DNA of 64,000 nt from Microthyrium microscopicum (taxonomy: Eukaryota): NCBI GenBank assembly GCA_010405405.1, contig MU004231.1, positions 1,104,153 to 1,168,152 on the forward strand, written 5' to 3'. Position 1 is the stretch's first letter. The number at the start of each line of letters is the position of its first letter. Below the pieces are notes generated by a model, which saw only the letters and a list, made by a program, of their open reading frames with translations, was not told where the DNA came from and did no database searches. Shown here piece after piece: positions 1 to 51,026 of this stretch. Made by a program: the position numbers and the translations under genes.

Positions 1-275
1 GTGGCGAAGCCAGGCTTGACAGTTCGCGGTCTTGGCATTCAAAAGGGGCCGAAACTGGGACCACCTCCACGATATAAAAAAATCCGTGTTCTTTCAATAA
101 TGCGGTCAAATCAAATCAAAGCCTTGAAATGCATAGAACAACACATAAGCTAGCCAGATTGCAATAATGCATAAGGAAACTACTAGAGGAAGTAAACCAA
201 CCGAATGAGTAAACATAGAGATGTGAACGAGATGTGAACGAGTCGACGGAGCTTCGCGAGTTGAAGCTGAGTCGG

Positions 276-550
276 GCTCTCCACGGAGCTCCTCTCTCCT
301 CGAAGAGTCTCTCCACAGAGATATTCTCTCCTTGAAGATCATCTCTCCTCGGCTGTTCTCTCCATGGAGAGAGTCTCTCCTTGGAGAATCTCTCCGCAGA
401 GCTCTTCTCTCCACGGAGAGGTCTCTCCACGGAGAGGATCTCTCCACGAAGACATTCCCTCCTCGGAGACGTCTGTCCACGGAGAGAGTCTCTCCACGAA
501 GAATCTCTCTCCATGAAGAATCTCTCCACGGACCTCATCCCTCCATGGCG
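276..550. repeat. Degenerate minisatellite, ~17 copies of TCTCTCC(A/T)(C/T)G(G/A)AG, period 15-18 bp
   Basis: Counted directly in the sequence. The unit is partly self-complementary (CTCTCC...GGAGAG). Confidence 0.85.
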
Positions 551-972
551 ATCTATCATGTCATCATTCTCACGAGTACGCTTGATATCCGCTTATAAAC
601 AATCTTTTGCCTTGCACATCTCCAGTCCAATCCGAGTCTCATTTATCTGCTGTTCAGCAAAATTATGACACCGCGCGATCGCGAGCTTGCTAAGTATGGT
701 GAACCACAGAATCCCTGAATTGGATCAGGTCAAGTCATGCAGCTATTCGGAGTTCTGTAACCTTGAGGCTGCGGAATTAGCTAGCACTATCTATTTAGCC
801 AGTTGGGGTTCTAATTGTGTCTCTTTTCCAATTGCTTCTTGGGTTTCTGCTTATAACATGCTAAAGCACCGGAGATGGGATTGCGCACTGAAATGCTAGT
901 ATTGATCTCATTGAAAATATTTCGATACACGTGTAACACCTGAAACTCCCACCCTAGCAATTTATCTATAGA

Positions 973-3359: not shown

Positions 3360-5026
3360 ATGCCAAAACAACGAAACTCCACAGTTAGACACTCTGGGCC
3401 TTCACTCAGCCCATACCGAAGACCCAGCATACAAGCTCGCACTACAGACGATGCTGAGTTTTCAGAACAGCTCACTGCATTGCAGCAACTGGCAAGTAAA
3501 TTGGCTGCCAAGCGAAGGATCGTCATCATCAGCGGAGCTGGCACATCCACGAATGCAGGCAGTAAGTCACAGGAAGTCGATGGTTCGTGCTCTAACCAGA
3601 TTCCGTGACAGTTCCTTGCTTTAAGAGTCTCTCGAGGACTAAGATGGCCAGCCGAAACGTATTCGATCTTTCAGCGTATTCTTCGCTGGAATCTGCCAAC
3701 TTATTACACGAGAGTGAGCTGCAGATACTCGAATCAGCGTCCAGGAATGAGCCTCAGCCTTTTGAGCTTTTCATGGAACAGTTGGCTCAATCAGGCCGCC
3801 TTCACCGACATTATACTCAGAACATTGATTGCCGCACGAGCAAGCTCCCCGCACTGAGTCAAAGAACGATTAATCTCCATGGTCGACTGGATAGATTAAG
3901 GTGTCACGTATATTCTCAGCACACAGTTTCAGTTCAGCAGCAGTCACTGCGGGAGTTGCTGGGTGCCCGATGCCCGGTATGCGACGAGAAGAATGAAGAA
4001 CGGTCCCGAGAAGGGAAGAGACTTCACAGCGTGGGATTTCTTCGACCCGACGTGTTACTATACAATGAGAGTGACGGAGCCGATCCTCAGATCATGAAGG
4101 CGTTTGAAGAGGATCTACGTGGAAATATCGATGCGGTCATCATTGTTGGAACGACGCTCCACATTCCTCTTTTGGAAGACTTCACAACCAAAGTCTGCCG
4201 AAGAATGAAACCTTCCACGGGAAAGACGCATTTACCTAGGACTGAAGGAATGGTTTTATGGATCAGCACCGAGAAACCAAAGGTAAGAGCAAAACTAAGA
4301 GATCTCATCGACTCAAAGTTCCTCCAAGACTGCGACGAATTCGCAGTTCAAATCTCTCCATGGCTTGACAACCTAAAAGGTAAGATGTCCCTCAGCAAAA
4401 AATAATCATTACTAAGTATGCACAGATATCTCATCTAGTGTCATGGCTTCGACAGAACCCGATGTTGGGATTGAAAGAGAACTTCAGTCCCCACGGAGCA
4501 GCACATTTGATCCTCCTAAACCTATCAGATCTATCGTCGATCTTACGGTTGACCAAGAACACTGCTGCCTATGTCCAAATGTCTTGGGCGAAGGAGGAGA
4601 CCTTGAAAGCAGAGCCTTTGTCTTCAATGACTGCGGATGTGTAAGCGAACGACGAAATCAACTTTGGCTGTGCTGATCAATAACTAGGTCCTTTGCGGCG
4701 AATGTGTTGGAAATGACAGCTCCATCGAGCTCACATGCCCAAAATGTGACCATTTTGGCAGCCTTTATTCCCACCCGCAAATCGTCCGTCAAGACTTTGG
4801 GCTCATGTGCCCTATTTGTTTCGAATCAGCAGGAACGGATACGGCGATTGAGCGCGTTTGCACGCCTTGCGGTAAGTGAGTATTCAAAAGCTTAGGAAGA
4901 ACCCGGCTTAATCAAAAAAAGGCCATGCATTCTGTCGTGCATGCATCACGGCGTATCTGGAAAACGGACAAAATGACACGTCTTCGAAATGTCCGACCTG
5001 CAAGGCTAAAATTCCCCGCGATGTAG
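3360..5026 (+). CDS. Sirtuin (Hst3/Hst4-like) fused to a SIM-like motif and two RING fingers; 5 exons
   Basis: Sir2 motifs GAGTSTNAGIPCF, YTQNID, LHG, LRPDVLLYNE, IVGTTL. GT-AG introns 3562-3611, 4380-4425, 4641-4688 and 4872-4921 join in frame to CCLC..CGCVLCGEC..CPKC and CPIC..CGHAFCRAC..CPTC. Stop TAG at 5024-5026. Confidence 0.75.
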
Positions 5027-15025: not shown

Positions 15026-16690
15026 ATGGTGTGGTCAAAATCTAATCGAATTTCGGTCATGTTGGCTATCGATGTGGCCTTCTTCCTGTTGGAGCTAGGT
15101 GTTGGAATGGTCGTGGGCTCTCTGGCTCTTATGGCAGATGCCTTTCATATGGTGAGATGAGACGGCACTCTTGAGTTGAGAACGTGTACTATACTAACAG
15201 CGCGTTAGCTCAACGACATCATCTCCCTCATCGTTGGCTTGTGGGCTGTAAAAGCTGCTCAGAAACCACGGTCCGACAAATACTCATTCGGAGTATGTAC
15301 GAGGTCCGCTCCATGGACAATCTCAGCGCAATGCTAATTTGTTCCTGAAGTGGCTAAGAGCAGAGATTCTTGGCGCCTTCTTCAATGCCGTCTTCCTCAT
15401 TGCCCTCTGTCTCTCCATCATCCTCGAAGCAATGACTCGTCTCCTCGATCCTCCTGAGATCAGCAACTCTAAAATCATCCTTATCGTTGGCTCGTTGGGC
15501 CTTGCTTCAAACCTTGCGGGGTTCATTGTATTAGGAGGGCACTCTCACGGGGAAACAGAGCACGATGGCCCTGTTGACGACGTCCGCACTGTCGAGGAAG
15601 GATACGGCGGGCATACTGGCGCGATTGAAGCAGAGTATTCAGGTAAGCTATAAAAGGGCAGCCGTCTCGAAATATTGATCGCTAACGCTAACATGTTAAA
15701 GGTGGGATAAAAACAATTACGCCTTCACAGATCCGGGTCGTTTCCTCGAGTAACATAGGTGCGAATTCGAATATACACAGACGACGAAGCAGCAAACTTA
15801 GAGGCATCGTGGATGGGAGCATATACCCTGCAAGCTTCAGACAAGGAATTATTCGCGCCGGCAAGTCTACTGCAAAAGGATATGGAACTGCCACTGTTTT
15901 GGACGAGTCCGAAGACGATACCGCAGAAGAGCCTTCCGAAACTTCTCCACTTGTGAAGAGCAAAAGTGGCAGCCCTTCCCAGAAGCGCCGCAACACGTAC
16001 AGTCGATCCCGTAAAGGATTTCGGTCGGAGGCTGCGCATAGCAACTACAACCACAGCAAGCTCGCGAAGAAAGCTAATGGCGGTACTGATATGGGCACCA
16101 GTGCGATGATCTTACACGTCATTGGAGATGCTCTCGGCAATGTGGGCGTGATTGCATCGGCGCTCATTATCTGGCTTACTCCATGGTCTGGCCGGTTCTA
16201 CGCCGATCCTGCTGTCTCCTTATTCATCGCAGTCATCATCTTGAAGACGACTATACCTTTGACTACCGCCAGCGCCAAGATACTGTTACAAGGTACCCCG
16301 GATCATCTTGACATCAATAATATCAAAGATGATATTCAAGAGATCCTAGGAGTTGTCAACTGTCACCATATCCATTTATGGCAGTTAAGTGAGACCCAAC
16401 CAGTTGCGTCCCTTCACCTTCAACTCGATTTCCCTATTGAAGAAGGTGGGGTTGCTGCGAGATACATGATACTAGCAAAGGCGGTTCGAGAATGTCTGCA
16501 TGGATATGGAATACACAGCGCTACTATTCAGCCTGAGTTCTGCTTGAACGACAAACACGACCATGTAGGGCAGGCGCAGCCATCGACAAGCCTAGACGGC
16601 TTTCAATCACTGCGTCAGGTAGAGGGATTAGATCACGACGCATGCCTAATCGAGTGTGTAGATGACTGCGAGGAAAGTACCTGTTTTTAG
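15026..16690 (+). CDS. CDF-family zinc transporter (ZRC1/COT1-like) #2; 4 exons
   Basis: SLALMADAFHMLND, YSFGWLRAEILGAFFN, GGHSHG, LHVIGDALGN, YADP, HHIHLW, GIHSATIQPE, C-terminal Cys motif. Introns ~15152-15208, ~15293-15350 and 15643-15701 keep the frame. Confidence 0.9.
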
Positions 16691-17709
16691 CTTTTATTGA
16701 GGTGCAACACCAAATTTGGACCTATTCTCTCTTATTGGACCAGCGCAAGAACTCCGCAGACGAATTAAAGCCCAAGTGGTTGATGCGACGCCAGCATTTG
16801 GGCTGACGAGTGTTGTATATGTTCTTCCGTGAATAGATCTCACAATTACGCTAGCATTCTAATTCCACAAATTTACTTTTCCAGCTACGCTGGTTGGTAT
16901 TCTAACTCCCACAGGCTCACCTTAATCAATTAAAAAAGTATAAAAATGAAAACTCACCTATTACCGGCATTCCTACCCGCTCCTCGTCTCCTCTTGAACC
17001 CTCTTGATGTATTTCCCTTCCGCCTCTTCTTGAAGAATCGTCGTCAGATCGGCCGTACCACTGTACACTATAGCACGTCGACCAAAAGGCACCCGGTCCG
17101 CCTTTCCCGATTGGATGTAAATTGAGATGCTGAGAATCTAATCCAATTTAGAAGTTGTATGAAAACGGAAGTGAGGGGTAACTGACATAACCTTCATCTA
17201 AAGTGTCGTCAGCTAGGGCGTTGTTAAGTAAAGACTTCACTACAATCCTAATGTCTATTCACAGTTAGCCTGAATTTATGGCCATTACACCCGAAAACAG
17301 AAATCACAATTTACAATATCGCTGTTGTTGTTAACAGCGTCATATAGAACACAATACGCGGCCGCATAGGAATCTAGTGGGAGGCAATATCACAAGCAGG
17401 AAACAGCTTTATCGGACAAATAAGCCTCAGAGAGATGAAGTAGTACAGATAGACGAAGCTGAACAGTGGAGGGAGACTGTAGGGTATACGGACGACACAA
17501 CACAAGTGTGCAGAGCACGAGAGAGACACACAGTATCAGATTACAGACAAAATCATACCACAGACAACATACAAGAAGTAACTAGGATTAAAGAACATGT
17601 ACACAGATAGATAGATAACGCAGAGCTGAGGGGGCAGCTGGTCATACTTCTGGTATGGCGAAGTGGGGCTTAATCAAATTAAGCGTCGGCTGCTTGGTAA
17701 CGCTCTGTA

Positions 17710-21643: not shown

Positions 21644-24600
21644 ATGGACCCAACCAATCAATGTACTTCCGGCTGTCATGAGAATGTAGAGCAATTTATG
21701 GTCAGACCTGCTGGAGTTGTCCTCACCGGGAATGAAGCCGAGGGCTGCGCTTCTGGTTGTTGCGCTGGCTCTGCCATCCAAGTTCCTGCGATCCGCGGCA
21801 ACCACACCATTACGAGTGCGCAGTGCAGCTCTGAAGACTGTAATGACTCATTGTCTATGGCAGTTCCAGCGCCTGTTAAGGAAGAGCTCGTCACAGACGG
21901 TTGTACTGGTGTTTGGTGCACTGAGAAGCCAGTTTCGGTTGCGGTCGAGGAATCACAGGCAGACAACTGCGACAATGGCTGCTGTGGAACCACAAATGAA
22001 GCGCCCATTGAAGCCTGCAAAGATGACTACTCTGGCGGCGTGAAGCCTGAGGAAGCTCAGGAGTCTAAAGGTGAGATGTAGTAAGGAATACATGGGCTAA
22101 AAGACTGACTTAACATTTCAGAGTGCAAAGACGCATGTTATTCCCCTACTAAGGTACCAACTGTCTCGGCAAATAACTGCTGTGATAGCAAGCCGACCCC
22201 ATGCTGTAATGGTATGCCCCTTCCCATCATTTCATCGACACCCACCAACCAACTAACAGAAGATTGTGTCGAACGCCTGGTTGTTCGCGAATGCGATACT
22301 GAGTGTATCGAAAGAGGCGCAAAAGGTACGTGCTTGTTTGTCTTCACGGAGCGGGCGCGCTAACAAGTCAACGTAAGGCTACAAGCGCAAGACTCCTTCC
22401 TCTACATCCTCCGATAAAGACGCAAAATGCTGCCCCAATGGTATTACTGCACGTCGGTTCTACCGTGAGCTCCTCAGAAGTCTAGGCTGCCTTTGTGGCA
22501 CGGCCAAAGCTCGTGGTGGGAAAACATGCTGTAATATTGCTTCTCGAACTGCCCCAGTTGCCCAGGAATCGATTCGACCTGCTTGCACCAAAAATCAGAA
22601 CGACCGTCTGCACCGTTCAAGCAGAGACAAATTTCCCCATTCCTCTCGTAAGGCTGACACCTGTGGCGGCGATGGTGACGATGACTGCTGCACTACAAAA
22701 CCTCATGCTCCGAGTATGAAAGAGAAGCTTCCGGAACTGGCCGTTCAAGGCGTTTCAGGTTTCACTCCATCAAACCTGGAGGATGGCGTTGCCGAAAATG
22801 AGCATGTCGTTCTCAGCGTGTCTGGCATGACTTGTGTTGGATGCGAGACCAAGCTTCAGCGATCTCTCGCTACGATCAATGCTGTGCAAAACCTGAAGAC
22901 CAGTTTGCTCCTTTGTCGAGCAGAATTCGACCTGGATCGTCGCTACGAAACCGTTGACAGCATCATCCACCAACTGCAGCGGATCACTGAGTTTAAGTAC
23001 GAAGAGCTCAGGCAAGATGGCTCCGAGATTGAAGTCTGGCCCCCTAACGTTAAGGGTTTCGTACAGCAAGATTTACCCGTAGGTGTTATCTCGCTTCAAG
23101 CGGTCGATAAGACTACTGTCCGCATCCTTTACAACCCTAGTATCGTGGGGGCGAGAGACCTGGTCGAACAAGAGTTTGGAATCCCTTTGACTATTGCTCC
23201 AATCAAGCGTGATCCAAATCTCGCAGCTGGTAGTAAGCACGTTCGACACGTCGGGCTGATGACTTTGCTATCGGCCGTGCTCACAATCCCCGTCTTGGTA
23301 CTCGCGTGGGCTCCTATACGCGAACAACCCATTGTTTACGGCGGCGTATCTTTGGCCTTAGCAACCTTGGTTCAATTTGTTGTTGCAGGCCCATTCTATC
23401 CAACGGCACTAAAGAGCTTGGTCTTTGCGAGAATGATTGAGATGGATCTCCTCATTGTGATCAGCACTAGTGCAGCATATGTTTTTTCAGTGGTCGCATT
23501 TGGCTATATGGCCGCGGGAAAACCGTTAGCCACTGGAGAGTTTTTTGAGACTAGCACACTCCTTGTTACCCTGATCATGGTTGGGCGCTGGATTAGCGCT
23601 CTAGCCCGTCAAAAAGCCGTGGAATCCGTCTCTGTACGTTCCCTGCAGACACATACGGCAGTACTTGTCGGAGCGGAAGACGAGAGTACGAGAGAGATTG
23701 ATACAAGGCTCCTGCAGTATGGTGACATCTTTCGAGTAGCACCAGAATCTCGCATTCCTACCGATGGTACCGTTATTGCAGGAGTTTCGGAGATCGATGA
23801 ATCTATGATCACAGGCGAGTCCCTTCCTGTGGACAAACGACCCGGGAAGGTTGTCATCGCAGGCTCGGTCAATGGGTCTGGAGTTCTCACTGTCCAACTC
23901 AGCAGATTGCCAGGAAATAACACTATTAGCACCATCGCAAACATGGTAGATGAAGCAAAACTGTCTAAGCCAAAAATACAGGACGTGGCAGACAAAGTGG
24001 CCAGCTTGTTCGTCCCGACCGCAATCGCACTCGCGCTTCTCGTGTTCATCATCTGGATTCCAGTTGGATTGAAGGTACGGCAATATGCTAGCTCGCGTGC
24101 GGTCACCGAGGCCTTAACATATGCCATCACTGTCATTATCGTCTCCTGTCCCTGCGCGATCGGACTGGCGGTGCCCATGGTCATCGTGGTCGCTGGGGGT
24201 GTTGCTGCTAGGCACGGTTGCATCTTCAAGACAGCCACAACCATCGAGATTGCGCGCAAGACGTCCCACGTGGTTTTTGATAAGACTGGAACTTTGACGC
24301 AGGGGCAGCTGAGTGTCGCCGCGGAAAAATGCTTCGGAGATGAGCAGTCTGTTGCCGCCGCTGTCTATGCGTTGGTATCCCAAGTTAAGCACCCAGTATC
24401 GCTTGCTGTCAAGAACAATCTTGAAAGCAAAATCGCCTCCAAGCAGAAAGCATCCGACGTTACATCTCATACTGGCAAAGGTGTAGAGGGCACTATCAGT
24501 GGAAAAGTTGTGAAGGCAGGCAATTCACGCTGGCTCGGTTTTGATGACCATCCAGCCGTAAAGAATTTTCTTGCACAGGGTTATACGACGCTTTGCACCA

Positions 24601-25205
24601 CCATTGACGGCGAATTAGTAGCGATTTTCGGCTTGCAGGATTCCTTACGGTCGGATGCAAGAAAAACCGTTGCAGAGCTCCAACGACGCAGCATCAAGGT
24701 GTCTATCGTTAGTGGTGACGATGAAGGCCCAGTCTCCATTGTCGCGCGCCAACTTGGCATCACCAGCTTCCGCTCTAAGTGCTCCCCTGCAGACAAGCTA
24801 AAGTTCGTGAAAGATCTCACCGACACGGGCAAAATCACCATCTTCTGTGGCGATGGAACCAACGATGCAGTAGCACTTGCACAAGCGACCATTGGCGTGC
24901 ATATGAACGAGGGTACGGACGTCGCGCAGAGCGCTGCTGACGCGGTTCTCGTCCGCTCATCGCTAATCGATATCATAACGCTCATCGATTTGTCAAAGGC
25001 GTCCATGCTCCGAATCGCAATCAACTTTGGGTGGTCATTTATCTACAACATTCTTGCCATCCTCCTCGCTTCTGGAGCACTGGTCAATGTTCGCATCCCC
25101 CCGAAATTTGCAGGTCTTGGAGAGCTGGTGTCTGTCCTGCCTGTTATTGCCATTGCGATGCAGCTTAGGTGGGCTAAGTTCTCCAACACCCCAACAACCG
25201 GATAA
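21644..25205 (+). CDS. PCA1: P1B-type heavy-metal ATPase with Cys-rich N-terminus (Pca1-like, probable cadmium exporter)
   Basis: Many CC/CxxxC motifs in the N-terminal exons, HMA GMTCVGC, TGES, CPC, DKTGT, HP, GDGTND. Introns ~22071-22120, ~22212-22262 and ~22326-22378 link exon 1 in frame to ORF 22716. Confidence 0.88.
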
Positions 25206-45612: not shown

Positions 45613-46381
45613 ACTGTTTGTCTCTACCGCGTATGCGCGTATTTGTTGTTGGCCGACTGGGGAGCATGTGAAGAGGACAAGAAGTGAATCTGAGATCAAA
45701 AGCTGAAATGAAACTGAAGAGGACGAAAGCTAGAGGTGTTGATCGTACAATCTGATGGAGAAGACGCCAGCGACCCGCCCGTCTTGCATCTGCCACCTCG
45801 CTTCATTTGCCGCGACGCGCATAGGATATCAATGGCTTCGCGAATCTTCAATGCTGGAAGCACATTGGCCCTGCGCCAGAATGATGGGTTCCACAAGATT
45901 GTGTCTTGCGTTGGAAGTGGGGAAATCGGGGTTCGGGCCGGCCAGAGCACTAATGCAGGTAACAATCTCCTCAGATTCTGACATACTCCTATGACCTGAA
46001 CATTGACGGTGAAAAGCAATGGAGGGAAAGACGATGTATGGGAGGTTAATATGGGAGGTTAATTGGCTCAAACGAGACGTTGAAGTGGGGGGGAGGGAAC
46101 ATGAGGAGGCCCGGTCGCATCAGCGTGTTGATTAGTCATCCTGCCAGGCCATCAGCCGTAAGTGCCCAGAGCTGCGGAGCAAGGAGGAACTATTCAGGCA
46201 AAGTGCAGGCCGGAATTTCACAGCAAAGTCCTCCAGCTGGAAAATAATAGCATAAAGATTGGAGCGATTCTTCAATATACTCGTAAATCATGAGACTTCA
46301 AACATTCAAAGACGAGTTACCATTCTTTCATCGTGATATTGACCATTAAACATAAACGCCTATGGACTGGCATCAGCTTCT

Positions 46382-49300
46382 CTATGCGAACCTTCTCGGC
46401 CTTCTAACTCTTCGACGGCCCTCGCATGGCTGGTGAAATTCCTCTATCAGATCCTTACACCCTTCAAGGTTTTGAATAGGCTCCCATGTGTTCGCTGAAC
46501 TTGGCCATCCGTGCCACTTGACTCTGTAGAGCGCACTGCCCCCAACCATGTCATGACCAACGATAGCTTCCACCTTGTACTTATCTCTCGTGTTTGACGC
46601 TCTGTCAATACCCCATGATGCCATGTGAGTATTGTCAGTCTCAGCAGGTGGGCTATCTCCAGGGCCGGTTGCAGAATCACCTTGAAGTTATTAGTAGTGA
46701 AGGAGCTAGAATATCATGCGACTTACGTTCAGAAGGAACTATGGCGGCGTCATTGACCTGCTGCCTCGCCGGGTTGTTTGAGGCGTGAAGCACTGAGACA
46801 CTTCGCTCACGAAGCGTCACTCGGTGACATGCATCCACAACATCCGGCACGGAACTAGGAACAAGCTCTTGATAGTCACTGTGGACATGAGTCCAGTGGT
46901 CCACATCGTCATCTCCTGTGAGGTCTATGAATGTGAAGTTCTCGATCGCTAATGGTGGGTCCATTGGGGAGCAACACTGGCGACCAAGCTGATAGTGCAT
47001 ATGCGCTGTACTGGCCAAGGCGTACATGCTCTCTTCCATGTCCATAGTGTCTTTAAAATTGTTAGGATTAGAAGTAAGGTGGAGTTTGAGAGACAAACCT
47101 TGCTGTTGCCATGACGAGGCATCGTCAGACTGGTGCACTGAGCCACCCTCTAGAGACTCAATGGGGACAAAGTCGTCATCGTTCACATACAGCTCCTTGT
47201 AAGAGGCGCTGTCAAGACCGCTTCGGATGTCGTCGCATATAGATGATAGCGGCGTTTGACTACCACTGCTGCGTCTTCCACAGCTACTGCTAGCCGTGCT
47301 AATGGCAAGGGATGGTGTGCGGGAGGATGACTTGCTTGCAAACTTGAAAGCGGTGGCGATTTCCACAGATTCGATGCTGGCGTTGACGAATGTGTATTCC
47401 AATAGCGCTGTCTGCTCTTTTCCTGTCTCAGACTTGATATCCGCCTTGCTCTGGCGGGTGAGTTGTGTTTTCTTCAGATGACTGAAGGATCGTCTATCGG
47501 TTTGATTATTCTTTCTCTTCCGAGTTCTCAGTTTCTTGAGTGAGTGGATACCGTGGGCGTCTTGGAGATGAAACTGGAGTTCCAGGGTGGAATTAAAGGG
47601 AACAGAACATTGTTGTGTTCGAAATTCGCATTTTACCGGCTGCTCTCCCAGAGCATCGATGTGTCTCTGAATGTGGGTCTGCCACTTCGGTTTACTCTTG
47701 AATTGGTACATCCGTTTGCTGGCCGGCAGTCTTGGGTCTACAAGACAGTCATAGCAGAAACCTGGCATCGCAAGAACTCCGTTAAAGACCAGTGGATCGA
47801 GGAAGACGGGGAAACTCTCCAAATCATTGACATGATCTTGGCAGTGGAGTTCCCACGACTCTGTATCGAAGATCCAATCGCTGCAAAGGAAACAAAGTTC
47901 CGCGAAGCCACGATCTTGTTGTTGTGTCTCTTGGAAGCATTTGTATATGTGACTCCAATCGTAAGTTTCGGGACACATTTCTTGAAGGTTCGGCTTTTGC
48001 TCCTGGAAGTCGTCAGTTGCTGTGTTGTCATTGGACCTGCGACAGCATCTGTTAGGTTCCAAGCCTGGACGAAAGTCTACCTCTCTCTCTTTCTCGCACA
48101 GTTCCGTCATGTCTTGGATAACACGAAGGCCGGCGGGACTTCGTAAGTCAGCAACTTCGAACATGTCCTCGGCAAGGCGTTGTCTCGCCGGCATCATGAA
48201 ACTGCAGCGATTGAATATTTCGCGATGATAACCTTGAGGGTCTCCAGGTTGGTATGGCTGTTTCTTCTGCCACTTTCGCAGTTCTCTCTTCATCAGTCTG
48301 GCCTTCTGCTTACGCAGCTTGGTTTCTTCCTCCCGTTGCTGTTCGGTATCCATATCAGGTTCAAGCTTCACAGCAGCCATCTTTTCCTCGAGGTCAAGCC
48401 AGTCTTGGCGATTCTCAATCTCATATTGTTTGGCTGCTGGAAGGCTGTGCCATAGATTCGGGTTTCGAGGCAGAGTTAGCTCTCTGAAGGCGTCGTTCAC
48501 TACATCTCGTCGCTCGTCACCGAGGAACGTGGCCTGGCCATCCACGCCGGCATTTCTGGGCTGGTAGCTTGAATGGAATGTCTCTCTGTCATCTTGCCCG
48601 GCTTGTCCCATCCGCGCATCAGGCGAATAATGCTTGTCTTCGCCACTGTTAGCATGTTTACAACAACTCTCAAGCTTGCGTGCTTACCAGTCAAAAAGAG
48701 GCCTTCTGCCCTCCAGTCGTGAATCGTCGGGGGAACTAGGAAACCAGCTCGGATGCCGCATTCCCGATGTCTGCTGCCAAACGCACTGGCGGTTTCAATC
48801 CTTTTTGCGCCCTTTGTGGATTGATTCAGGAACACGGGTGCATCAAGTAGATCCTCCTCCCAGTGGATCTGGAATGCACGGTGTTCTTGAGTTGGGGTAA
48901 CTGCAAAGAGCTCTTGTAACGTCTTGTAGTCCCTAAAGGCACGACGTCTGAGGAATATAGCCAAGTATGGCAGAAGAGGGTTCTGATAAAGAGGGCGAGG
49001 ATACCGCCCTTCTGCGAATGCATGCTGCGGCCTGTGAGAGGTTTAGTCAATATCCATATTCGAATGTTCACATGACATTACCTTCTGTGAGGAGTGTTGG
49101 TCATGTTCTTCGCGTCCTTCGTAAGCTGCATAGCAAGTTCGGGTCTGTCATCCTCATTCAAAAACACTATTACCATGATATCCTGTGATTCTTTCAGTCA
49201 GCGGAGCCTCGCGCACGATGGTCTTTTTCATCGACGAACCTTGTAGCGCAGGCCTCTTCCGGAACCCCTTCTGGCTGATGATTCAATGTACTCTCCGATT

Positions 49301-49968
49301 CGAGCGGAAGAATACACAATCGCCAGGGTCAGGGCCCAGTCTAGTACTCTGGTTCCTGGCGAAGAGTATTCATACCAGTCCACCTTCCACAGCTGTCTGG
49401 CAAAATGGTACAGATGATTCCTGTTTGCGTACCGTCGTGCTCGTTTTCTCTCAGGCATCTTCAGCTCATCCTTCAAAGGGCCGTATATGAACTAAGTCTG
49501 GCGGTTAGCTACGGTGAATTAAGAGCTAGCAGTAGTCAAACATACCTGCGTAACCGACCTCTGTATGTGCTCCGATATTGGGTTGTCCTCATAGGCTCGT
49601 AGCCAGGCTCCGGTGAAGTTGTTCCAGTAGTTTCGAACACTTTCGACGCATGGAGGTATCCAGCCGTCCTCGTCCTCGTCTGTGTCGCTGTCGGGGTCAT
49701 CATATCCCCTCTGTCCGTCCATGCCGAGTGCCACATGCCTTATGAAGTCTTTCATCCATTTCAAGCTGTGGACTGAAACTGTCAGATTTAACTTCAAGTT
49801 GTCTTCCACAAACTGGTCCCAGAGAGCCAATTGTCTCCGATGATTTCGCTTTGTCCCATCTTCAAGGCCCTTCAGCACTGGCTTGTCGTTAACGATCCCT
49901 GTATCCTTTTGAGCGCCCCTCGCCCTCGCTCGAATGAAATGTGCTTCGGGATTCTTCCCTCTCGCCAT
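46382..49968 (-). CDS. Starship captain: DUF3435-type tyrosine recombinase with C2H2-like zinc fingers and a C-terminal chromodomain; 6 exons
   Basis: YSSARIGEYIES (catalytic R), KDAKNM, TIHDWRAEGL (HxxR) and RMGQAGQ..FHSSY (Tyr nucleophile); C-x2-C..H fingers. Introns ~49490-49545, 49183-49239, 49032-49081, 48638-48687 and 46681-46726 are all in frame. Chromodomain YKVEAIVGH..YRVKWHGW..NTWEP..NL. Confidence 0.88.
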
Positions 49969-50412
49969 TCTCTGGCCGGAGAAGAGATGTAATGATATTG
50001 AATAAGCTGCAAGCAAAGATGAATGGTGTAAGAATGTTCGATTGAACTTATGAAAGAGAATGAAGAGACACAGAGAATGAGAAGACCGGTTTGATATTCA
50101 AAACCCGCATCAACTGAACATGCTAGAGGGAAGGGGAGACTGGATTTCCTTGCTCAACATGAAATGAGTGACACGGAGAGGACGCCCTTATACATATGAT
50201 CCAACCACCATCATCCCATCCAGACAGCTATGCCCAAGGGGCCTCATCCTATTGCATCAGCAAGCCGCCGGCGGTGAATCACCTCCAGCCGCTCTATGAA
50301 GGGGATCCCGAAACTGGGACCCCCGACAGGGTCGCGTCGACTTGACATTTTTCTCATCGCATACTGCGTGGCTGCTTAGATGACGAGGGGCCCAGAACCG
50401 GGACCGCGAGTG

Positions 50413-50566
50413 TGAGACTGAGCGACAGCATGAGCAGCCTGAGGCAGCCAGATTCGAGCGTGAGCGACCATGATTGAGTTTGAGGTGGCCGTGAGCAAGC
50501 GTGAGTTAAGGCGGTGCAATCGTGAGCATAGTGAGCCGAGGTTGAGCCGAATAAGATTTTGCTGAG
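50413..50566. repeat. Array of 13 TGAG tetramers, mostly spaced in ~10-bp multiples
   Basis: TGAG starts at 50413, 50419, 50431, 50440, 50461, 50475, 50481, 50492, 50502, 50523, 50532, 50543 and 50563. Confidence 0.7.
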
Positions 50567-51026
50567 TCAACGTGGCTGTATCGACGACCCGAATTGGGAC
50601 GTGGGTGCGGGCACTTTGTCCCCGGTAATAGCAGCATATGTTTTCACTCACATTTTTCTGCTCATGGACACCGGAAAGAGCTACGGATTTTGAAAAGACT
50701 GATGAACAAGGGATCAAAACTGACAGCAACATCCGCACAATATCATTCCTCATCAAGGCTTTCAGACGAAGTAGGTGCTCTCTGATGATCATCAACTAAC
50801 AGACCAATGTAGTACAAGATTGGATAGTTTCTATACAGGGCTGTTGCATTGGAAGTTTGACTACTGAATGTAGTAAAGAACATAGCAGCTGTTCGAAAGA
50901 GCTGGTGGTCCCTGTCTCTGAACCATCCGCTCAGAGTATATAATCATCAGCTATCGTCGGTAGCAGAGATTTCAGTCAGCGGCAAAGATCTCAGTCGATG
51001 GCAGATCAAATTCATTCTCTTGAACC

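What the first reader, a model, noticed from the sequence alone, without database searches (positions are those of the whole stretch)
46382..48611. Captain carries zinc fingers, a SIM-like motif and a spliced-on chromodomain
Seen: intron 46681-46726 (GTAAGT...CTAAT...AAG) joins the recombinase in frame (VPSERDSATGP...HMASWG) to a chromodomain with aromatic cage residues (Y, W, W). Upstream are three C2H2-like fingers and FIDLTGDDD, a SIM-like motif with an acidic flank. The position before the catalytic Tyr reads AGQ, where His is common. Inference: chromatin-guided targeting analogous to chromovirus integrases, with a SUMO link shared with the sirtuin-RING cargo protein.
Basis: partly seen in the sequence, partly recalled or inferred. 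Interest (0 to 1): 0.7.

Follow-up and report, generated by a model that had tools for sequence, protein, structure and literature searches.

The report
Starship recombinase with spliced chromodomain tail
This is the mobilising enzyme of a giant fungal transposon; its histone-reading and zinc-finger parts are real but already described for this family, and the only fresh detail is a short conserved motif that may bind the host's SUMO tag.

Summary
The gene is a Starship captain (DUF3435 tyrosine recombinase), minus strand, 49968-46382. One identical transcript contig joins all seven exons, including the 46726-46681 chromodomain junction, which is also spliced in three other studies. The chromodomain keeps its aromatic cage, and the three C2H2 fingers are conserved. 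None of this is new: recombinase + zinc finger + chromodomain, and the chromovirus analogy, were published for the Enterprise captain Kirc (PMC8092012). A captain with these coordinates is already catalogued as Enterprise family (PMC11162782, supplement), although its listed span stops before the chromodomain. AGQ is a common variant (25 of 85 relatives). I found no paper on the SIM. The motif recurs in divergent tails of one subclade (9 of 58 clusters; shuffles mean 0.3, max 3). A SUMO-peptide prediction gave only weak support (0.42, best control 0.02). Chromatin-guided targeting is untested: 5 of 7 flanks of related ends in this genome are ordinary-GC DNA. The element probably spans about 147 kb between GCTAT repeats. 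Verdict: known kind, with one modest new lead.

The parts
50623..50632 (-). 5' boundary: direct repeat GCTAT (50632-50628), then TACC
   Evidence: Homology to three other termini in G000 ends here. GCTAT recurs after the matching 3' ends.
50609..50623 (-). 5' terminal inverted repeat GGGGACAAAGTGCCC; 14 of 15 bases match the inverted copy at G000:C2 about 1007920, i.e. 96.2 kb before the window start
   Evidence: It is the only matching 3' end in the 164 kb examined. Inferred element G000:C2:1007909-1154779, 146,871 bp.
49969..50491 (-). Transcribed leader of at least 523 nt with 14 upstream ATGs, none open into the captain
   Evidence: Contig X1-1 reaches 50491; ATG count. A contig cannot show the true start.
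49546..49968 (-). Captain exon 1 (ATG 49968); intron 49545-49492 follows
49240..49491 (-). Exon 2, with catalytic R205 (SSARIGEY); intron 49239-49183 follows
49082..49182 (-). Exon 3, with TKDAKN (catalytic Lys is K247 or K250, not resolved); intron 49081-49032 follows
48688..49031 (-). Exon 4, DUF3435, with H363-x-x-R366; intron 48687-48638 follows
   Evidence: Pfam PF11917 E 4e-5, below the curated cut-off on this fragment
47099..48637 (-). Exon 5: A-G-Q388, catalytic Y398, helical domain, zinc module, basic patch RTRKRK (47528-47511), start of the disordered tail
   Evidence: AlphaFold2 gives blocks of pLDDT 70-97 over most of residues 435-745 and under 50 beyond residue 750.
47553..47894 (-). 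Three C2H2 fingers: C622/C625/H638/H642, C668/C671/H695/H699, C710/C717/H730/H735
   Evidence: Conservation. Foldseek's top rows are C2H2 arrays, but none reaches E 0.001.
47051..47098 (-).
   Evidence: Skipped in X1, X3 and X5
46727..47050 (-). Exon 6, disordered, carrying the SIM-like motif
46905..46931 (-). SIMb-type motif FIDLTGDDD (residues 927-935)
   Evidence: Family enrichment; weak predicted binding to host SUMO
46681..46726 (-). 46-nt intron that splices on the chromodomain exon
   Evidence: 4 of 4 runs laid
46382..46680 (-). Exon 7: single chromodomain (about 46579-46424), cage Y1029/W1050/W1053, basic C-terminus, stop at 46382

Best explanation
This is an intact, transcribed Enterprise-family Starship captain that mobilises an element of about 147 kb carrying metal-handling cargo. 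Shown here: exon structure, domain content, family, and terminal repeats. From family knowledge: the recombinase cuts and rejoins at a short core (here GCTAT) next to inverted terminal repeats, through a phosphotyrosine at Y398. Inferred: the zinc module adds DNA contacts at the ends or the target. Inferred: a long disordered tail tethers the enzyme to host chromatin through two low-affinity handles, a classical chromodomain that reads methyl-lysine on H3 (K9 or K27) and a SIMb motif that binds SUMO on chromatin or repair proteins. The core sequence sets where integration can occur. The tail most likely tunes efficiency and locality, for example reaching the element's own silenced ends or biasing among many GCTAT sites, rather than strictly targeting heterochromatin.
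For: Six spliced GT-AG introns in one 3,923-nt contig with no mismatch, and no stop in 1093 codons. Catalytic R, HxxR and Y are intact. The recombinase region is 91% identical to a catalogued fam06 captain, and a captain with these coordinates is listed as fam06 = Enterprise. The cage is intact and the best PDB hits are LHP1, MPP8 and HP1. A chromodomain is found in 16 of 192 relatives, many of them fragments. The strict psi-psi-DLT motif occurs in 9 of 58 tail clusters, against a shuffle mean of 0.3 and a maximum of 3 in 1000, and 14 times in 16,844 tail residues against once in 27,611 head residues. SUMO-peptide score 0.42, best control 0.02. The mark was reached by 51 of 78 solved complexes and 2 of 108 mismatched pairs. 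At 0.60 or under it was reached by only 5 of the 78 and by all 4 passing mismatches. On eukaryotes it was reached by 39 of 65 solved pairs and 2 of 126 unrelated pairs; peptides are untested. Runs agree in at least 86% of contacts, partner pLDDT at least 49. SIMb-SUMO binding is well characterised, and I recall solved SIM-SUMO complexes, so the pass may come from memory. In Pyricularia, Enterprise elements lie in H3K9me3/H3K27me3 chromatin.
Against: No binding or transposition data. 5 of 7 flanks of related ends in G000 are ordinary-GC, non-RIP DNA. Most published Enterprise insertions are in 5S rDNA, which points to sequence-driven choice. The SIM is absent from 62 of 81 tails on the tree, including all 11 rows of the Fusarium-type group; many tails are cut at an intron, so absence is often uninformative. 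The motif was chosen after seeing the query, and related rows are not independent. The putative 3' end is RIP-like while the captain is not, so the two ends may belong to different copies. No empty site was available.
Confidence: 0.6

Rival explanations
1. Strict chromovirus-like targeting: the chromodomain directs new insertions into H3K9me/H3K27me heterochromatin.
For: Classical cage. The MAGGY precedent is cited in PMC3350952 and PMC11162782. Enterprise elements are heterochromatic in Pyricularia. The 3' flank here is AT-rich and RIP-like.
Against: 5 of 7 flanks are ordinary GC, and the 5' end sits about 0.4 kb from a GH127 gene in a gene-dense block. The Pyricularia authors read the marks as silencing after arrival. 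GC content does not report H3K27me3, so this test is indirect.
Confidence: 0.2
2. The SIM serves turnover or repair, not targeting. It brings SUMO-pathway factors to the covalent recombinase-DNA intermediate, or limits captain levels. The cargo sirtuin-SIM-RING protein could act as an element-borne SUMO-targeted ligase in the same loop.
For: Motif conservation in a subclade. SIM directly before a RING is the layout of SUMO-targeted ubiquitin ligases such as RNF4, and the cargo model is in frame. That covalent protein-DNA adducts are handled through SUMO is recalled, not from a call.
Against: No evidence links the two proteins. The RING part has no Pfam hit at E 1 (exons scanned separately). 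The cargo splice was not tested with RNA.
Confidence: 0.12
3. The motif is not a functional SIM (for example a remnant or a site for another partner), and the captain is just an ordinary Enterprise captain.
For: The chance of one such motif in a 353-residue tail is about 3% at the local background rate (4 in 47,535 residues). The complex score is weak. Many captains lack the motif.
Against: Recurrence with acidic flanks in otherwise unalignable tails, including a relative 38-47% identical with FVDLTGDGD at the same place.
Confidence: 0.3
4. The captain is catalytically weakened or domesticated because Gln replaces the His/Trp before the catalytic Tyr.
For: His is the majority residue (58 of 85). 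Only one intact captain was found in G000.
Against: Q occurs in 25 of 85 relatives, including named captains from several fungi. The other catalytic residues, the terminal repeats and several derivative copies are present.
Confidence: 0.05

Closest known systems
Kirc, captain of the Enterprise element of Podospora anserina (PMC8092012; passages read)
   Same: N-terminal tyrosine recombinase, central zinc-finger domain, C-terminal chromodomain, first gene of the element. The paper already suggests chromodomain-guided targeting and cites chromoviruses.
   Different: Direct repeat here is GCTAT, not CTACCT. No SIM is mentioned in the passages seen. I did not align Kirc itself (sequence not fetched).
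Starship family 6 (Enterprise), clade 2, starfish catalogue (PMC11162782; sections 20 and 27, passages, and supplement sheets S2-S4, S7, S8 searched, file cut when stored)
   Same: HxxR motif. A captain with contig number 2 and span 1150832-1154120, minus strand, is listed as fam06 (S3 row 8026, S4 row 6234). The Dendryphion captain, 91% identical, is fam06. Another fam06 element has direct repeat gctatt.
   Different: The listed span ends at window 46680, i.e. at the end of the intron-retained frame, so the chromodomain exon is outside it (inferred from coordinates; model sequence not seen). No element boundaries were called for that genome (elementCount 0). Not inserted in 5S rDNA, unlike most Enterprise insertions.
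Chromovirus integrases with group I chromodomains, e.g. MAGGY (PMC3350952; passages)
   Same: A mobile-element enzyme ending in a chromodomain with all three cage aromatics.
   Different: Unrelated catalytic chemistry (DDE integrase vs tyrosine recombinase; recalled). An analogy, not membership.
SIMb motifs of PIAS1 (VIDLT) and RNF4 (VDLT) (PMC3901395; passages)
   Same: Hydrophobic-hydrophobic-D-L-T core with acidic flank in a disordered region.
   Different: Single copy, on a transposon recombinase; binding not measured.

Membership tests
Starship captain | DUF3435 tyrosine recombinase domain | tested here: met
   PF11917 E 4e-5 on one exon, below cut-off. The 91% identical P0005 scores E 5e-14, over cut-off.
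Starship captain | R-K-H-R-Y catalytic pentad | tested here: met
   R205, K247/K250, H363, R366, Y398. H, R and Y are the majority residues in relatives.
Starship captain | First gene at the 5' edge of the element | tested here: met
   ATG lies 659 bp inside the boundary defined by three other termini.
Starship | Short direct repeats with terminal inverted repeats | tested here: met
   GCTAT and a 15-bp inverted repeat (14 of 15) at both ends; same layout in a 4-kb derivative on C12. Pairing of the two distant ends is inferred.
Starship | Presence/absence against an empty site in another strain | not testable with these tools
   G000 has no relatives in the genome search.
Starship | Captain-dependent excision and reinsertion | not testable with these tools
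   Needs a bench assay. The loose end in X1 mapped to another copy on C12, not to an excision junction.
Enterprise family (fam06) | Placement of the recombinase domain in family 6 | tested here: met
   By catalogue entries, not by my own tree: coordinate match listed as fam06; 91% identical neighbour is fam06.
Enterprise family (fam06) | Clade 2 HxxR motif | tested here: met
   HDWR
Classical (group I / HP1-like) chromodomain | Three aromatic cage residues (HP1 Y24, W45, Y48) | tested here: met
   Y1029, W1050, W1053
Classical (group I / HP1-like) chromodomain | Binds H3K9me or H3K27me | not testable with these tools
   Needs peptide binding.
SIMb SUMO-interacting motif | Hydrophobic-hydrophobic-DLT core, acidic flank, disordered context | tested here: met
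   FIDLTGDDD. The modelled tail up to residue 886 has pLDDT under 50; the motif itself lies beyond the modelled part.
SIMb SUMO-interacting motif | Binds SUMO | tested here: inconclusive
   Weak support only: 0.42 vs best control 0.02; no interface given.

The most novel reading that the evidence does not exclude
A subclade of Enterprise captains has kept a working SIMb motif in its disordered tail and uses SUMO together with histone methyl-lysine to dock on silenced or damaged chromatin. This element may also carry its own sirtuin-SIM-RING protein acting on the same SUMO-marked chromatin. It would be the first SUMO-reading module described in a Starship recombinase as far as my searches reach.
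Probability: 0.35. Interest if true: 0.55.

Novelty: new member of a known kind. Interest (0 to 1): 0.3.

Why it matters
How Starships choose sites and how hosts control them is open, and the published suggestion that extra captain domains matter has not been tested in the papers I saw. This gene gives an RNA-verified, full-length, expressed captain with definable ends and a captainless mini-copy in the same genome, so domain-deletion tests are straightforward. It also shows that catalogue gene models can miss the spliced-on chromodomain, so its frequency among captains may be undercounted. A working SIM would add a host pathway to Starship biology.

Tried and rejected
Alternative acceptors for the last intron: only AAG at 46681 is a plausible in-frame site, and it is the one used in RNA. 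The loose end of X1 at 50429 as an excision junction: it maps to the mini-copy on C12. 5S rDNA target: no Rfam match at gathering score in the window, L018, L021 or L022. AGQ as a peculiarity: common. Fold search of the zinc module: no match at E 0.001. Origin of the chromodomain: the search of longer proteins returned 1 of 14 candidates and is uninformative. Search of G000 with the DUF3435 profile found nothing, not even this gene, so it says nothing about copy number. The metagenome scan gave only 2 loci of 158 candidates, and L002 is a broken copy. One of two further 3'-end pattern hits (C7, L028) has no homology beyond the motif and was left out of the flank count. The careful tree did not finish; the quick tree was used. 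RNA depth was not used to rank expression, because all runs are contigs. An intron-retained isoform cannot be excluded, because contigs drop rare forms. PMC9156397 had no whole-word hit for chromodomain or zinc finger.

Full report
What is there. The stretch is the 3' two thirds of a minus-strand gene in a 37-Mb fungal genome (G000:C2). The host's SUMO exon is identical to a protein labelled Microthyrium microscopicum. I modelled the gene from splice signals and then laid four public runs on it, chosen from the 24 listed. In run X1 a single 3,923-nt contig with no mismatch covers 46264-50491 and skips six introns, all GT-AG on the minus strand: 49545-49492, 49239-49183, 49081-49032, 48687-48638, 47098-47051 and 46726-46681. 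The runs are only guessed to be RNA, but six clean intron skips and a single genomic copy leave little else. The chromodomain junction is also skipped in X2, X3 and X5, three other studies whose sequences are mostly 90-99% alike. The 47098-47051 intron is in frame and was missed. The mature protein has 1093 residues and no internal stop.

Anatomy. Residues of about 85-430 form the recombinase, with R205, K247/K250, H363, R366, Q388 and Y398. A helical region follows, then three C2H2 fingers. Each ligand is kept in 79-98% of the relatives that cover it (118-143 rows, from 149 proteins aligned), and the AlphaFold2 model is confident there. Foldseek's best rows are C2H2 arrays, all above E 0.001. 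A fourth possible zinc site (C-x-C...H603-x3-C607) is kept in 33-36 of 38 aligned rows; this copy has CC instead of CxC. After a basic patch comes a tail of about 280 residues, of which the modelled part is disordered. It holds FIDLTGDDD and ends in one chromodomain (PF00385, E 4e-18) whose best solved relatives are LHP1, MPP8 and HP1. The three cage positions named in PMC3350952 (passages) are aromatic here.

Family and prior art. 7 of 47 relatives from the first search carry a precomputed PF00385. 16 of 192 proteins gathered have a chromodomain, 12 of them two in tandem; many of the 192 are fragments. PMC8092012 (passages) describes Kirc as recombinase, zinc finger and chromodomain, and proposes targeting with a chromovirus citation. 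PMC11162782 repeats this for Enterprise captains with MAGGY as the model. Its supplement lists the Dendryphion captain, 91% identical over the recombinase region, as fam06. It also lists a captain on scaffold 2 at 1150832-1154120, exactly this gene's start and the end of its intron-retained frame, as fam06 = Enterprise. So the gene is catalogued, apparently without its last exon, and no element was delimited for it. The supplement was cut when stored, so later sheets were not seen. PMC12506042 and PMC11857905 (passages) describe other Starships with a separate chromodomain gene at the far end. PMC10104507 (passages) shows captain-dependent mobility for Hephaestus.

AGQ. Of 92 proteins hitting this region, 85 cover position 388: 58 H, 25 Q, 2 gaps (rows not de-duplicated). 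That this position corresponds to the second His/Trp of tyrosine recombinases is recalled and fits the 10-residue distance to Y398. It is a common variant.

The SIM. The core matches the SIMb type of PIAS1 and RNF4 (PMC3901395, passages). Of 192 proteins, 122 had a locatable third finger. With the captain, 83 had at least 100 residues after it, in 58 clusters at 65% identity. The strict motif occurs in 9 of 58 clusters (14 of 83 sequences); 1000 shuffles give a mean of 0.3 and a maximum of 3. A shorter form occurs in 13 of 58 (shuffles 1.3, maximum 6). A loose form occurs in 18 of 58 (shuffles 6.1, maximum 15), a much weaker excess. On a quick tree of 81 of these rows (two with too short a head left out), 19 carry the short form. 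16 of them fall in one 41-row clade (SH-aLRT 97). None occurs in a 21-row outer clade, nor in the 11-row Fusarium-type group that mostly has tandem chromodomains. The broken relative L002 has FVDLTGDGD at the same place. Caveats: the pattern was chosen after seeing the query, kin share motifs, and many tails stop at an intron. A prediction with host SUMO gave 0.42 against a best control of 0.02. The mark was reached by 51 of 78 solved and 2 of 108 mismatched pairs. At 0.60 or under it was reached by only 5 of 78 solved and by all 4 passing mismatches. Peptides are untested, runs agree in at least 86% of contacts, partner pLDDT is at least 49, and a pass from memory of solved SIM-SUMO complexes is possible. 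This is weak support. Searches for 'starship' with 'SUMO' (5 listed of 6, none on captains by title or abstract start), 'starship' with 'SUMO-interacting' (0), 'SUMO-interacting motif' with 'transposase' (15 listed of 18, none relevant by listing) and our own findings (0) found no prior report. The library lacks most subscription papers.

The element. The 200-450 bases upstream of the gene match three other places in G000, and the match stops at GCTAT followed by TAC(C/T)GGGGACAAAG in two of them. A 4-kb captainless copy on C12 shows the full layout, with TGCGCTAT at both ends and an inverted repeat. The only matching 3' end in the 164 kb examined lies 96.2 kb before the window start, which gives 146,871 bp. 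That end is RIP-like and the captain is not, so the pairing is probable, not proven. Cargo in the window includes a PCA1-like heavy-metal ATPase, a cation-efflux protein, a Na/Ca exchanger, a ferritin-like protein, DUF7492, a VWA-Hint protein and a sirtuin.

Targeting. Of seven flanks of related ends, five are ordinary (GC 0.42-0.48, no RIP signal) and two are AT-rich. No 5S rDNA is nearby. This does not look like strict insertion into RIP-type heterochromatin, but composition cannot see H3K27me3. In Pyricularia, Enterprise elements are heavily marked (median 82% H3K27me3 against 12% for Arwing; bioRxiv 10.64898/2026.01.28.702382, passages, supplements closed), which fits either targeting or later silencing.

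The cargo link. The sirtuin gene can be modelled in frame with three canonical introns into a protein with IVDLT directly before a RING-like cysteine pattern. This was not tested with RNA. The same motif occurs 4 times in 47,535 residues of open frames across the 164 kb, twice in the VWA-Hint gene. Nothing shows that the two proteins act together.

Verdict. The architecture and the targeting idea are published, and the gene is a catalogued Enterprise captain. What this adds is the RNA-verified full model, probable element ends, and a subclade-conserved SIM-like motif with weak binding support. Interest 0.3.

Noticed in passing
window 3360-4880 (+): Modelled sirtuin-SIM-RING gene (introns 3562-3611, 4380-4425, 4641-4687), 458 aa. 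IVDLT sits directly before a RING-like pattern, the layout of SUMO-targeted ubiquitin ligases. Splicing not checked with RNA.
   Followed up: partly
G000:C12:283215-287250 (L021/L022): A 4-kb captainless copy with both termini and direct repeat TGCGCTAT, no RIP signal, holding a 698-codon open frame of unknown kind. A contig of run X1 comes from it.
   Followed up: partly
G000:C12:1325447 onward (L006, L024): A RIP-destroyed copy of the same 5' end, including the captain leader (GC about 0.2).
   Followed up: partly
G000:C9:1079837-1080049 and G000:C1:3542312: A lone 213-bp 5'-end fragment at a border between AT-rich and gene-rich DNA, and a further 3' end followed by GCTAT.
   Followed up: partly
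window 250-560: An array of GGAGAGA-rich repeats, also present about 200 bp inside the 3' end of the C12 mini-copy.
   Followed up: no
window 49969-50491: The captain leader holds 14 upstream ATGs, a possible brake on translation.
   Followed up: no
window 12600-41600: Metal-handling cargo (PCA1-like ATPase 22377-25205, cation efflux near 15700-16700, Na/Ca exchanger, ferritin-like) reminiscent of Hephaestus cargo but under an Enterprise captain; also a VWA-Vwaint-Hint gene.
   Followed up: no
P0017, P0018, P0023, P0026, P0027 and others: 12 of 16 chromodomain-bearing relatives have two chromodomains; the second lacks the third cage aromatic.
   Followed up: partly
P0050, P0109: Relatives whose tails end in other domains (2EXR, RTC4), suggesting an exchangeable C-terminus or fused gene models.
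   Followed up: no
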